Assembly: GCF_041248615.1 (NCBI RefSeq) | Contig: NZ_CP158426.1 | Source: Escherichia coli | GTDB lineage: Bacteria > Pseudomonadota > Gammaproteobacteria > Enterobacterales > Enterobacteriaceae | Direction: 5' to 3' (one strand) | Length of the DNA stretch: 64,000 nt | Shown: in pieces, positions 12,001 to 15,000 of the stretch | How positions within the stretch are numbered: position 1 is the stretch's first letter | Layout of the letters: the number at the start of each line of letters is the position of its first letter | Made by a program: the position numbers

Positions 12001-15000
12001 ATGTGAAGGCCGCTGAAAACTTCGATAACGTAACGCGTCTTGACCGCTTTACCACCGATTTGACGTTGAAGGATGGCGTCGTGACGTTAAACGACATGCA
12101 AGGTCAATCGCCCATGCTGGCGCTTTCCGGGGCTGGTACGTTGAATCTGGCGGAGCAAACCTGTGACACCCAGTTTGATATTCGGGTCGTGGGGGGCTGG
12201 AACGGGGAAAGCAAACTGATTGATTTCCTCAAAGAAACGCCAGTACCGCTTCGGGTTTATGGCAACTGGCAGCAACTCAATTACAGTCTGCAAGTGGATC
12301 AGTTACTGCGCAAACATCTACAGGACGAAGCGAAACGTCGCCTGAATGACTGGGCCGAGCGGAATAAAGATTCCCGCAATGGCAAAGATGTGAAGAAGTT
12401 GCTGGAGAAGATGTAGGTTACCAGGTGACCTGTCCTGTAGGCCTGATAAGACGCGTGAAGCGTCGCATCAGGCGTTCGTGGCGGCACCATTATATTCTGA
12501 ATATGTAAGATCGAAGGCTGTTCCGTTCACTTGATGTTCCTCGCTACTATGGAACGCTCAAGCCGGTGAACGTGCCAGGATGGCTCAATCTCCACCACCC
12601 TGGCAACCCGGACCCACACCCCCGCTGTGATGTCCATGTACCACAGACAACGCTTCATTGCTGAAGTTATAAGGCGTTACGCAGCATTGGGTAAAATGGC
12701 CGATACCATCACACCTCGTACTCCATCTCGCCATCCTTACGCAGCGGTATAATCTGCACCTTCTGCACGCGATGGCTTTCCACCTGCAACGTTTTGAGCA
12801 AGTAATCCCCTACCTGAACTTCTTCGCCAGGTTTTGGAATACGCTGCAAATATTCCATCAGCAGCCCGGCAATGGTGTGATATTCGCGTTTCTCATCCAG
12901 CGGTAGCGGCACATATTGCACCAGATCTTCCAGTGGCATATGACCATTCGCCGTCCAGGAACCGTCGGCGTTTTTCTGAATATCATGGCGGGCGTCGATC
13001 TCTTCCACTTCGTTCGGTAAGTTACCGGCAATGGTTTCAGTGACGTCACTTAATGTCACAATCCCTTCCACCGAGCCAAACTCATCCACTACAAAAGCAA
13101 AGTGCGTGCGGGCATTACGGAACTGCTCCAGGGCAGGTAACAACGGCAAGGTTTCCGGGAACACCAGCGGCTGGCGAATCAACACCCGCAGGTTGAGCGG
13201 TTCGCCGCGCAGAGACTGTTGTAGCAGGTCGATAACGTGAACAACACCGAGCAAATCTTCTGCGTCATCACCGTCGGTAACCACCAACCGCGTATGCTGA
13301 TTTCGCTCCAGCAACTGGCGGATTTCTTCTTCCGGCGCGTTGAGATCGATATGCTCAATATCGTGGCGCGACGTCATAATGCTGCTGACGGTACGCTGGT
13401 TAAGATTAAGTACCCGCTCAATCATCCGCCGTTCCTGCGGATTAAAGATCTGCTGGTTACCATGATCCACCAGCATGGACGCGGTTTCGGCGTCCAGTTC
13501 CGCATCTTCTTTTTGCCCGCTAAGCAGGCGCATTACCGCTTCGGTAGTCCGCTGGCGCAGCGTCTGGTTAGCGGAAAGAAAACGTCGCCGGTTAAAGATA
13601 GCCAACTGATTGAGCGCCTCGATCATCACCGAGAAACCAATAGCAGCGTACAGGTAGCCTTTCGGAATGACGAAGCCGAAACCTTCTGCCACCAGGCTAA
13701 AGCCAATCATCAACAGGAAGCTTAAGCAGAGAATAACGATCGTCGGGTGACTGTTAACAAATTGCGTTAACGGCTTGCTGGCCATCAACATCAGGCTAAT
13801 AGCGATAACGACGGCGGCCATCATGACCAGTAAATGGTCGACCATCCCGACGGCGGTAATCACCGAGTCGAGTGAGAAGATGGCGTCCAGTACCACAATT
13901 TGTGTCACCACCCCCCAGAACTTCGCACCTTTGCGTTGTGTGGGGTTATTGCTGTCTTTCCCTTCCAGCCGTTCGTTCAGCTCCATCGTGGCTTTGAACA
14001 ACAGGAAGAAACCACCAAACAGCATGATTAAGTCGCGGGCGCTAAAGGTAAACGAGCGAAAGCTGAATAGCGGTTGTGTCAGGGTGACCAGCCAGGAGAT
14101 TGACGCCAGCAGTAACAGGCGCATTAACATCGCCAGCAGCAGCCCGGTAACCCGTGCGCGGTCGCGCTGCTTCGGCGGTAGTTTTTCGGCGAGGATGGCA
14201 ATAAAGACCAGGTTATCAATGCCGAGGACCAGTTCGATCACAATCAGCGTGATTAACCCGGCCCAGATAGACGGATCGGCAATCCATTCCATAGTAAGTA
14301 CAAAACCTATTCGTTGTATGACAAATGTCACAATTCGATCATGGATAAATCGGGGCAAAAATGCAATGTTGCAGCACTATTTATCTCATATTATTTGAGG
14401 TTTATAACCTCACATTATCCCTGAATTAAAAGTGGTAATAATAAAACATTATTTAAGAAATATCGCATATGGAGACACAATATTAAATATTGTCAACCTA
14501 AAGAAACTCCTAAAAACCATATTGAATGACACTTAATATAATTCTTAAAAATAGCCAATTGCCGAATTGTTACCTTGCCTGCTATTCCGTTAGCTGTAAC
14601 ACTTCCTCCTGCATTATTGGAGAGCCAATCTTCAATTACCATAATGTCACCTTATATTCGGAAGTTAATTTCCGCAATAACCCTTTCTCATCAACGACTG
14701 TATGTTGAGAGGGTTTTAAAAATTAAGCTAAATCAGTATATTGGTAGCTAAAAAGCCAGGGGCGGTAGCGTGTCTGGATGCCTGAAAGACCAGTCTGAAT
14801 TATTCTGTCAATAGCCTGCGGATGAAATCAATTTTTTTAGGACTGATGCCAGTTAAATTTTTATTCAATTAACTGCAAGGTAAATGTGCATGGCGACATT
14901 GCTATTAATAGTGCACAGGATAATTACTCTGCCAAAGTGATAAATAAACAATGATGAAATCCAAAATGAAATTGATGCCATTATTGGTGTCAGTAACCTT

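What the first reader, a model, noticed from the sequence alone, without database searches (positions are those of the whole stretch)
14734..14772. Two nearly identical 39-bp JUMPstart/ops elements head the two polysaccharide operons
Seen in sequence: the wza leader (14734-14772) and the rfb leader (38814-38852) carry the same element, 'cagta..tggtagct..aagccaggGGCGGTAGcgtg', differing at only a few positions. Established knowledge: the ops core recruits the antiterminator RfaH, which suppresses polarity across long envelope-polysaccharide operons. Consequence: the roughly 23 kb cps and 14 kb rfb operons here are both predicted to be RfaH-dependent. The wza element lies within a long AT-rich leader of about 590 bp (14359-14950).
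Basis: partly seen in the sequence, partly recalled or inferred. Interest (0 to 1): 0.3.

Follow-up and report, generated by a model that had tools for sequence, protein, structure and literature searches.

The report
Two JUMPstart/ops antitermination sites, already known
The two 39-base elements are real, textbook JUMPstart/ops sites that load the anti-terminator RfaH onto RNA polymerase ahead of the colanic-acid and O7 O-antigen operons of E. coli, so the finding is correct but ordinary.

Summary
14734-14772 and 38814-38852 (+ strand) are 33/39 identical, while their flanks are unrelated. Both score as Rfam JUMPstart (RF01707) at exactly those coordinates: 57.2 and 61.1 bits against a threshold of 35.

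Both end in the full 12-nt ops GGCGGTAGCGTG on the non-template strand. No other site in the window has the full 12-mer.

The window is an E. coli O7 chromosome: yegH | wza…wcaM (22.5 kb) | galF + terminator | rfbB…manB (14.1 kb).

A scan of 100,044 species' genomes returned about 105 such elements, all in Enterobacterales-type sequence. They fall into the same syntenic classes as the two here. One stem pair covaries (UA/AU/GC/GU), which supports the 5-bp hairpin.

Published ChIP-seq in E. coli CFT073 shows RfaH bound at both the wza and the O-antigen ops sites. The RfaH reading is therefore supported.

One correction: 14359-14950 is not all leader. It also holds the promoter and upstream activator region. 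The transcribed leader is inferred at about 340 nt.

Leads only: the hairpin base lies 12 nt behind the ops pause site, and a conserved 8-codon mini-ORF starts 74 nt after the wza ops.

Novelty: already known. Interest is low.

The parts
14734..14772 (+). JUMPstart element of the colanic-acid (wza) leader
   Evidence: Rfam RF01707, 57.2 bits against GA 35. The pattern search gave 2 hits against 0 in shuffles. The same element lies between yegH and wza in 21 loci of other Enterobacterales.
14761..14772 (+). 12-nt ops GGCGGTAGCGTG on the non-template strand. The expected pause is at U11 = 14771.
   Evidence: Base roles (C3:G8 pair, G4, G5, T6, A7, G8, T11G12) come from PMC5995543 and PMC11001881.
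14741..14759 (+). JUMPstart hairpin. Arms are 14741-14745 (UUGGU) and 14755-14759 (GCCAG), with a 9-nt loop AGCUAAAAA. There are 3 Watson-Crick and 2 G.U pairs.
   Evidence: Rfam consensus structure and covariation at pair 9-25 across 60 distinct elements. The hairpin is weak here: RNAfold of the isolated 39-mer does not choose it.
38814..38852 (+). JUMPstart element of the O7 O-antigen (rfbB) leader
   Evidence: Rfam RF01707, 61.1 bits. In the most divergent E. coli genomes it is the only part of the galF-rfbB spacer that still aligns (hits H39-H42). It is the invariant block in the cross-genus alignment.
38841..38852 (+). 12-nt ops GGCGGTAGCGTG. The expected pause is at U11 = 38851. The rfbB GTG starts 75 nt after the ops end.
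38821..38839 (+). JUMPstart hairpin. Arms are 38821-38825 (CUGGU) and 38835-38839 (GCCAG), with loop AGCUGUUAA.
   Evidence: It is in the MFE fold of the element and of the inferred 5' UTR. Covariation is shown.
14575..14603 (+). Inferred core promoter of the cps operon: -35 TTGCCT at 14575-14580, a 17-nt spacer, and -10 AACACT at 14598-14603 (AACAAT in other genera). The predicted start is near 14610.
   Evidence: It lies in a block conserved from Escherichia to Citrobacter, Salmonella and Enterobacter-like genomes, while the next ~120 nt diverge. This is inference only. No TSS data were available, and the consensus scan did not pick it.
14534..14547 (+). RcsAB-box-like block TAATATAATTCTTA
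   Evidence: It is conserved across genera. It matches 11/14 positions of the Klebsiella galF RcsAB box TAAGATTATTCTCA quoted in PMC3438125. This is inference.
38721..38749 (+). Inferred O-antigen promoter: -35 TTGTTT at 38721-38726, a 17-nt spacer, and -10 GACAAT at 38744-38749. The predicted start is near 38756.
   Evidence: The CCTTGTTTC and GACAAT/GAAAAT blocks are conserved in 12 of 14 genera-level sequences. This is inference.
38595..38657 (+). Intrinsic terminator after galF. It separates galF from the rfb transcription unit.
   Evidence: Hairpin of dG -30.8 kcal/mol, z = -7.9, followed by a U-run. The ACGGCAG…CTGCCGTTTTT arms are conserved across genera.
14951..37486 (+). Colanic-acid operon wza-wcaM (22.5 kb), the target downstream of the first ops
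   Evidence: RefSeq annotation of the identical record NZ_LT599825.1.
38927..53008 (+). O7 O-antigen operon rfbB…manC-manB (14.1 kb, 36.5% GC), the target downstream of the second ops
14846..14872 (+). Candidate 8-codon mini-ORF (MPVKFLFN) in the wza leader. Its ATG starts 74 nt after the ops end. It is a lead, not an established part.
   Evidence: It is retained with the same length in 11 Enterobacteriaceae loci. An ATG sits at the same +73 distance in 3-4 Erwiniaceae and is absent in 2.

Best explanation
Both elements are JUMPstart sequences whose 3' 12 nucleotides are the ops signal.

Transcription starts at an upstream promoter. For wza this promoter is Rcs-activated and H-NS-silenced. For rfb it is a weak constitutive-type promoter that lies after the galF terminator.

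When RNA polymerase reaches ops it pauses at U11. [quoted passage not shown]

Autoinhibited RfaH binds that hairpin. Its N-terminal domain locks onto the polymerase and excludes NusG, and hence Rho. Its C-terminal domain refolds into a beta-barrel that captures a ribosome.

The modified polymerase then transcribes the 22.5-kb cps operon and the 14.1-kb AT-rich O7 operon without Rho- or H-NS-dependent polarity.

Shown here: sequence identity, strand, position ahead of the operons, family membership, conservation and synteny.

Taken from the literature: pausing, RfaH binding and antitermination. RfaH occupancy was shown by ChIP at the orthologous loci of strain CFT073.

Inferred: transcription start sites, and RfaH dependence in this particular strain.
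For: Rfam JUMPstart hits fall at exactly the stated coordinates, well above threshold.

The complete 12-nt ops, with all recruitment-critical bases and the pause-inducing T11G12, occurs only at these two sites. Both are on the sense strand upstream of the operons.

The flanks are unrelated, so the similarity reflects constraint rather than a recent duplication.

Phylogenetic footprints show the 39-mer as the invariant block in both leaders across genera. In divergent E. coli genomes it is the only surviving match in the galF-rfbB spacer.

About 105 elements were found, in Enterobacterales-type sequence only. They fall into the same syntenic positions: yegH|JS>wza, galF>JS>rfbB, and JS>waaQ.

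The literature gives ops base roles and the NT-DNA hairpin (PMC5995543) and the pause at U11 with the opsHP structure (PMC11001881). RfaH ChIP at the wza-wcaM and O-antigen ops in CFT073 was absent in delta-rfaH, and coding-region ops matches did not bind RfaH (PMC9765446). Colanic acid is described as RfaH/JUMPstart-regulated.

The O7 cluster is AT-rich, 36.5% GC overall and 30.7% in its centre. That is the kind of DNA on which Rho and H-NS polarity is expected.
Against: No transcription-start, RfaH-binding or expression data exist for this strain. The rfaH gene lies outside the window and was not checked.

The promoter positions are inferred from conservation only. The consensus promoter scan did not find them.

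The cps operon body has ordinary GC content (52.7%), so the size of the RfaH effect there may be modest.

In CFT073, RfaH at wza was visible only after hns and stpA were deleted.

The wza start codon is 179 nt after ops. RfaH targets are described as having the start codon within 100 nt.
Confidence: 0.93

Rival explanations
1. The 5' two-thirds of JUMPstart is a functional nascent-RNA hairpin that works together with ops. Possible roles are a pause-modulating or anti-backtracking hairpin behind the ops-paused polymerase, or a site for another factor. On this reading the element is more than an ops carrier. This adds to the RfaH explanation rather than replacing it.
For: The stem is kept in 98.7% of cells across 60 distinct elements, against 90.3% in shuffles (0/500 reach the observed value) and 20-61% in slid controls.

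Pair 9-25 switches among UA (37), AU (11), GC (3) and GU (6). These changes occur in all three syntenic classes.

The G.U pairs make the structure specific to the sense strand.

Loop bases A13 G14 C15 are invariant and T16 is near-invariant.

The hairpin base is 12 nt upstream of the U11 pause 3' end. From my own knowledge, this resembles the 11-12 nt spacing of the his pause hairpin.
Against: Only one pair truly covaries. Three pairs never vary and so say nothing either way.

The search pattern fixed parts of the element.

The wza copy is weak, and RNAfold does not predict the hairpin for the isolated 39-mer.

The mechanistic literature states that the ops pause is biochemically distinct from hairpin-stabilised pauses, and that ops plus RfaH suffice for the whole cycle.
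Confidence: 0.3
2. The upstream GGTAGC copy is a second, degenerate ops-like non-template hairpin that gives RfaH or RNA polymerase a first weak landing or pause site.
For: GGTAGC is repeated directly: element positions 10-15 and 31-36.
Against: The position that corresponds to ops C3 (element position 9) is T, A or G. It covaries with position 25, not with the base that would be its G8 partner. The C3:G8 pair is needed for recruitment. There is no TG pause dinucleotide at the corresponding distance.
Confidence: 0.03
3. The shared 39-mer is chiefly a recombination junction, or a relic of duplication, at the edge of exchangeable polysaccharide gene cassettes. On this reading it has no regulatory role of its own.
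For: It sits at the boundary where the O-antigen clusters of different E. coli genomes diverge.
Against: The same element heads the non-exchangeable wza and waaQ operons. It is strand-specific, always lying upstream and in the sense orientation. It shows stem covariation. It binds RfaH-modified complexes in vivo. Its flanks show no trace of duplication.
Confidence: 0.03
4. The similarity is due to chance.
For: None. The bare 8-mer alone does occur at close to chance level elsewhere in the window.
Against: The pattern gave 0 hits in 100 shuffles. The Rfam E-values are 1e-10 to 1e-11. The element is conserved across genera.
Confidence: 0.01

Closest known systems
JUMPstart sequence (Hobbs & Reeves 1994; Rfam RF01707)
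   Same: The length (39 nt), the consensus sequence, the 5-bp hairpin, the 3' ops, and the position just upstream of polysaccharide gene clusters all match. Both copies score far above the Rfam threshold over the full model.
   Different: Nothing material differs. The wza copy has an A-rich loop (AGCTAAAAA) and a U.G outer pair, both typical of the wza-type subclass in Escherichia and Citrobacter.
ops element / RfaH regulon of E. coli (waaQ, rfb, hly, kps, tra, wza)
   Same: The 12-mer GGCGGTAGCGTG is identical. It lies on the non-template strand in the leader region. The orthologous wza and O-antigen ops sites bind RfaH in CFT073.
   Different: The wza start codon is 179 nt from ops. The waaQ-type, rfbB-type and the few other (wzx-like) loci examined here have the first start codon 36-123 nt from ops, mostly 36-85. 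The literature gives 'within 100 nt'.
O7 rfb promoter/leader studied by Marolda & Valvano 1998, and cps promoter studied by Stout 1996 (E. coli K-12)
   Same: These are the same loci. The window is an O7 strain. Citing papers state that cps transcription uses a JUMPstart-RfaH mechanism.
   Different: Neither primary paper is held in the library, so their mapped start sites could not be compared with my inferred ones.
his-type hairpin-stabilised transcriptional pause
   Same: A 5-bp stem with an 8-9-nt loop sits 11-12 nt behind the paused RNA 3' end. The geometry was computed. The his figures are from my own knowledge.
   Different: The ops pause is reported as pre-translocated and backtrack-prone, and as biochemically distinct from hairpin pauses. 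No experiment links the JUMPstart hairpin to pausing.

Membership tests
JUMPstart (Rfam RF01707) | Match to the family covariance model above the curated gathering score, over the full model length | tested here: met
   57.2 bits (14734-14772) and 61.1 bits (38814-38852) against GA 35. Model positions 1-38 of 38 are matched.
JUMPstart (Rfam RF01707) | 5-bp hairpin (element positions 8-12 with 22-26) immediately 5' of the ops | tested here: met
   All five pairs are standard pairs in both copies. The wza copy has U.G, U-A, G-C, G-C, U.G. The rfb copy has C-G, U-A, G-C, G-C, U.G. Family-wide, 98.7% of cells are paired and pair 9-25 covaries.
JUMPstart (Rfam RF01707) | Non-coding position just upstream of, and in the same orientation as, a polysaccharide gene cluster | tested here: met
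   The wza ATG starts 179 nt after the end of the first element, and the rfbB GTG starts 75 nt after the end of the second. All are on the + strand.
ops / RfaH-dependent operon | 12-nt ops GGCGGTAGnnTG with C3, G4, G5, T6, A7, G8 and T11G12, on the non-template strand | tested here: met
   GGCGGTAGCGTG at 14761-14772 and 38841-38852. The other three GGCGGTAG 8-mers lack TG at positions 11-12 and lie in coding sequence. Base requirements come from PMC5995543.
ops / RfaH-dependent operon | ops lies in the transcribed leader, downstream of the promoter | tested here: inconclusive
   Conserved promoter-like hexamers lie 125 nt (wza) and 58 nt (rfb) upstream of the elements. No TSS data were available, and the consensus scan did not call these sites.
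ops / RfaH-dependent operon | First start codon within about 100 nt downstream of ops (PMC11001881) | tested here: inconclusive
   rfb: met, with the GTG at +75. wza: the wza ATG is at +179, so this is not met by the annotated gene. It is met only if the unannotated 8-codon mini-ORF at +74 is real.
ops / RfaH-dependent operon | RNA polymerase pauses at U11 and RfaH is recruited there | not testable with these tools
   Shown by ChIP-seq for the orthologous wza and O-antigen loci of CFT073 (PMC9765446).
ops / RfaH-dependent operon | Distal-gene expression falls in an rfaH mutant | not testable with these tools
   Only literature statements for other strains are available.
ops / RfaH-dependent operon | rfaH gene present in the same genome | not tested
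   rfaH lies outside the window. E. coli carries it as a rule (established knowledge).

The most novel reading that the evidence does not exclude
The conserved leader parts around ops may be working parts of the RfaH loading module rather than passive flanks. Two leads support this.

(a) The covarying JUMPstart RNA hairpin ends 12 nt behind the U11 pause. That is the geometry of a pause or anti-backtracking hairpin.

(b) A first start codon is kept at a short, class-specific distance after ops: +36 to +50 in waaQ-type loci and mostly +71 to +85 (four at +107 to +123) in rfbB-type loci. In the wza leader the gene itself starts at +179 or later. There, a conserved 8-codon mini-ORF (14846-14872, ATG at +74) could be the site where the RfaH-tethered ribosome first initiates.
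Probability: 0.2. Interest if true: 0.45.

Novelty: already known. Interest (0 to 1): 0.12.

Why it matters
It confirms that this strain's two large envelope-polysaccharide operons carry intact RfaH loading sites. That is useful for annotation, because neither element is a feature in the RefSeq record.

It is also useful for anyone engineering colanic-acid or O-antigen expression. Deleting or moving the 39-mer would be expected to cause polarity.

It teaches nothing new about biology. JUMPstart (1994), ops (1996-97) and RfaH occupancy at these loci (2022) are all published.

The only forward-looking value is in the two side leads: the hairpin-to-pause spacing and the mini-ORF in the wza leader. 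Both bear on an open question, namely how and where RfaH loads the first ribosome.

Tried and rejected
1. Other GGCGGTAG 8-mers at 3338(-), 14174(+) and 27435(+). All lie in coding sequence and all lack T11G12. 14174 is on the template strand of yegH. Coding-region ops matches do not bind RfaH in CFT073. I rejected them as functional sites.

2. Consensus promoter scan. Its two + strand hits in the wza region (14618-14645 and 14715-14742) fall in sequence that is not conserved between genera, so I did not adopt them. The scan found no + strand hit between the galF terminator and the rfb JUMPstart.

3. Terminator scan. It missed the strong galF terminator because the loop is long. Folding recovered it.

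4. Primary papers. Stout 1996 (PMC178186) and Marolda & Valvano 1998 are not held. Their mapped start sites could not be used.

5. RNAalifold on the 180-nt wza leader downstream of ops. The consensus was weak (-6.6 kcal/mol) with one compensatory pair, which is inconclusive. Single-sequence folds of 14820-14900 and of the wcaM-galF spacer are no better than shuffles.

6. 'Second ops' reading of the upstream GGTAGC repeat. I rejected it on the covariation pattern.

7. Fifteen of the 120 genome-scan hits were chance matches in GC-rich genomes (Fodinicola, Phycisphaerae, Polyangia and others) and were excluded by eye. A few hits labelled Arthrobacter, Erysipelotrichia or Peptococcaceae carry E. 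coli-like flanks. These are probably contamination or mis-binning.

8. RcsAB-box search with the remembered consensus. The best matches had 4 mismatches. Only the match to a published Klebsiella box (11/14) is reported, and only as inference.
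Full report
**Observation**

- 14734-14772: CAGTATATTGGTAGCTAAAAAGCCAGGGGCGGTAGCGTG
- 38814-38852: CAGTACTCTGGTAGCTGTTAAGCCAGGGGCGGTAGCGTG

They agree at 33 of 39 positions. The 60 nt on either side agree at only 19/60 and 15/60, which is random level. The similarity is therefore a sharply bounded conserved element, not a remnant of a larger duplication.

A degenerate 39-nt pattern finds these two sites and nothing else, with 0 hits in 100 dinucleotide-preserving shuffles.

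The bare 8-mer GGCGGTAG occurs five times in the window against 1.23 expected. Only the two leader copies have the complete 12-nt ops GGCGGTAGnnTG. The other three are at 3338-, 14174+ and 27435+. They lie inside yegD, antisense in yegH, and inside wcaI, and all lack the T11G12 dinucleotide.

**Context**

The window is 100% identical over the wza upstream region to E. coli NRZ14408 (NZ_LT599825.1). That record's annotation gives the following layout:
- yegH(-) 12709-14292
- wza 14951 … wcaM 37486 (22.5 kb)
- galF 37661-38554
- rfbB 38927 … O7 wzx/wzy … manC, manB ending at 53008 (14.1 kb)
- gnd, ugd, wzzB, then the his operon on the opposite strand

The yegH-wza spacer has 34% GC, against 48.7% for the window. 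The cps genes have 52.7% GC. The O7 cluster has 36.5%, and 30.7% in its centre.

A strong hairpin followed by a U-run follows galF (38595-38657; dG -30.8 kcal/mol, z = -7.9). Its arms are conserved across genera. The rfb genes therefore form their own transcription unit that begins in the galF-rfbB spacer.

**Identity**

The scores are 57.2 and 61.1 bits against a gathering score of 35, over the full model.

Both elements are on the same strand as the downstream genes. The ops therefore lies on the non-template strand, as RfaH recruitment requires.

**Related sequences**

One scan of the 100,044-species genome collection used TAGC-N7-10-GGGGCGGTAGCGTG.

Fifteen were chance matches in GC-rich genomes. 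The remaining ~105 all carry Enterobacterales-type sequence. A few sit in records labelled Arthrobacter, Erysipelotrichia, Peptococcaceae or Wohlfahrtiimonas, which are probably contaminant or mis-binned contigs.

By tblastn with Wza, Wzb, GalF, RfbB and YegH from the window, and by ORF inspection, the elements fall into three syntenic classes:
- yegH <-| JUMPstart -> wza-wzb (21 loci: Escherichia, Citrobacter, Salmonella, Pantoea, Erwinia, Tatumella, Brenneria and others)
- galF -> terminator -> JUMPstart -> rfbB or another first O-antigen/capsule gene (50 loci)
- JUMPstart -> waaQ-type heptosyltransferase, plus a few others (34 loci)

The two elements in the window are ordinary members of the first two classes.

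Cross-genus alignments of both leaders show the 39-mer as the invariant block amid diverged sequence. Among divergent E. coli genomes, the only part of the galF-rfbB spacer that still matches is query positions 260-298, which is the JUMPstart itself (hits H39-H42).

The wza leader is present in 4831 of 5426 complete E. coli genomes.

**Structure**

On 60 distinct 39-nt elements (alignment A2, ungapped), the Rfam hairpin pairs columns 8-12 with columns 22-26. It is paired in 98.7% of cells, against 90.3% in column shuffles (0 of 500 reach the observed value) and 20-61% when the partner is slid by 1-3 columns.

Pair 9-25 switches among U-A (37), A-U (11), G-U (6) and G-C (3), with three exceptions. 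The switches occur in all three syntenic classes, so there were several independent events.

Three pairs never vary and are therefore uninformative. The outer pair varies on one side only (C-G/U-G).

The G.U pairs make the structure specific to the sense strand. A 19-nt hairpin cannot form inside an ~11-nt transcription bubble. The hairpin is thus most plausibly in the nascent RNA.

In the window, the rfb copy forms this hairpin in the minimum-energy fold. The weaker wza copy (two wobble pairs) does not when folded alone.

Position 9 covaries with position 25, not with the base that would be its partner in an ops-like DNA hairpin. This argues against reading the upstream GGTAGC repeat as a second ops.

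**Mechanism**

This part comes from the literature and was not tested here.
- ops is a consensus pause. RNA polymerase halts at U11.
- The non-template strand forms a small hairpin (G2:C9, C3:G8, G4:A7) that presents G5 and flipped-out T6 to the RfaH N-terminal domain.
- G4, G5, A7 and G8 are essential. C3 and T6 are important. T11G12 cause the pause.
- After binding, the RfaH C-terminal domain refolds to a beta-barrel that binds ribosomal protein S10.
- RfaH excludes NusG and so blocks Rho (PMC5995543, PMC11001881, PMC7593976).

Both ops copies here have every one of these bases.

ChIP-seq in E. coli CFT073 found RfaH on eight loci. These include the O-antigen cluster and wza-wcaM, and in each case the signal begins at a leader ops. 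The signal was absent in delta-rfaH.

In that strain the wza locus was silent in rich medium because H-NS/StpA block initiation. It bound RfaH once hns and stpA were deleted. None of the 22 non-template ops matches inside coding regions bound RfaH (PMC9765446).

Other papers describe colanic-acid synthesis as JUMPstart/RfaH-dependent, citing Stout 1996 and Hobbs & Reeves 1994. They also cite O-antigen expression as RfaH-regulated through JUMPstart, from Wang et al. 1998 and Marolda & Valvano 1998. The two primary promoter papers are not in the library, so I could not compare mapped start sites.

The stretch 14359-14950 is not a 590-nt leader. It is most of the 658-bp yegH-wza intergenic region.

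Cross-genus conservation picks out three groups of features there:
- Two AT-rich upstream blocks. One of them (14534-14547, TAATATAATTCTTA) matches a published RcsAB box at 11/14 positions.
- A block containing promoter-like hexamers: TTGCCT at 14575-14580, a 17-nt spacer, and AACACT at 14598-14603.
- About 120 nt of diverged sequence, followed by the JUMPstart and a strongly conserved ~180 nt down to the wza ATG.

This implies a start near 14610 and a leader of about 340 nt.

For rfb the conserved hexamers are TTGTTT at 38721-38726 and GACAAT at 38744-38749. They imply a start near 38756 and a leader of about 170 nt.

These positions are inferences from conservation. The consensus scan did not call them.

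**Side leads**

(a) The hairpin's 3' base (element position 26) lies 12 nt upstream of the U11 pause 3' end. From my own knowledge, this is the geometry of the his pause hairpin. However, the ops pause is reported to be mechanistically distinct from hairpin pauses.

(b) RfaH targets are said to have the start codon within 100 nt of ops.
- In my sample, waaQ-type loci start at +36 to +50.
- rfbB-type loci start mostly at +71 to +85, with four of about 22 at +107 to +123. The window's rfbB starts at +75.
- wza itself starts at +179 or later.

Exactly 74 nt after the wza ops there is an 8-codon mini-ORF (14846-14872, MPVKFLFN), preceded by TTTTTTTAGGACTG. It is retained with the same length in all 11 Enterobacteriaceae wza-type loci, with Leu codon TTA/CTT/CTC changes. 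An ATG sits at +73 in Mixta, Erwinia and Winslowiella arboricola with different peptides. It is absent in a Pantoea and in W. iniecta.

The same stretch also contains a 7-bp inverted repeat (CAGTTAA…TTAACTG) with one compensatory change. Coding and structural readings therefore cannot be separated with the present sample.

**Verdict**

The elements are already-known JUMPstart/ops sites at loci where they have been described and, in a sister strain, shown to load RfaH. Interest is low. The side leads are recorded for completeness.

Noticed in passing
window 14846-14872 (+), with the upstream motif at 14832-14845: A conserved 8-codon mini-ORF (ATG CCA GTT AAA TTT TTA TTC AAT TAA; MPVKFLFN) lies in the wza leader. 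Its ATG starts 74 nt after the ops end, almost the same distance as the rfbB GTG (75 nt) in the other leader. It is retained in 11 Enterobacteriaceae loci. An ATG sits at +73 in 3-4 Erwiniaceae and is absent in 2. The stretch overlaps a 7-bp inverted repeat, CAGTTAA/TTAACTG.
   Followed up: partly
window 14773-14950 (+): The ~180 nt between the ops and the wza ATG are far more conserved between genera than the ~120 nt upstream of the JUMPstart. Conserved blocks include YCTG directly after ops, ATTATTCTGTCAATAGCC, and CACAGGATAATTACTCTGCCAAAGTGATAAATAA. Rfam has no family there. RNAalifold gives only a weak consensus.
   Followed up: partly
window 29159-29208 (+): An Rfam algC RNA motif (RF02929, 78.2 bits against GA 33.8) lies in the cpsB-cpsG spacer inside the colanic-acid operon.
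   Followed up: no
window 14493-14642 (-): RefSeq annotates a 49-aa 'hypothetical protein' on the minus strand inside the yegH-wza intergenic region. It overlaps the conserved RcsAB-box-like and promoter-like blocks and is probably a spurious call.
   Followed up: no
window 38595-38657 (+): A strong intrinsic terminator lies after galF (dG -30.8 kcal/mol, z = -7.9, then a U-run). Its arms are conserved across genera. The simple terminator scan missed it because of its long loop.
   Followed up: yes
window 27435-27446 (+), inside wcaI: An ops-like GGCGGTAGGCGG lies on the non-template strand within the RfaH-controlled cps operon itself. It has all the recruitment bases but lacks the T11G12 pause dinucleotide. 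By analogy with the CFT073 data it is probably inert.
   Followed up: partly
window 38756-38860 (+): In the inferred O7 5' UTR, the sequence just before the JUMPstart (AAUGUACGC) can pair with the ops 3' end and what follows it (GCGUGCAUU), enclosing the JUMPstart hairpin (dG -34.6, z = -2.3). An ACGC preceding the element recurs in Escherichia, Citrobacter and Salmonella galF-type loci but not in wza-type loci.
   Followed up: partly
window 50186-53008 (+) and 27675-30583 (+): The window holds two manC/manB pairs: cpsB-cpsG in the colanic cluster and a second pair at the end of the O7 cluster. RefSeq labels the O7 manB as 'colanic acid biosynthesis phosphomannomutase CpsG', which is a naming carry-over.
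   Followed up: no
loci L023, L047, L082, L105 (genome contigs): JUMPstart-bearing contigs with E. coli-like galF/rfbB flanks are filed under Arthrobacter, Erysipelotrichia, Peptococcaceae and Wohlfahrtiimonas assemblies. They are short or low-coverage contigs, and likely contamination or mis-binning.
   Followed up: no
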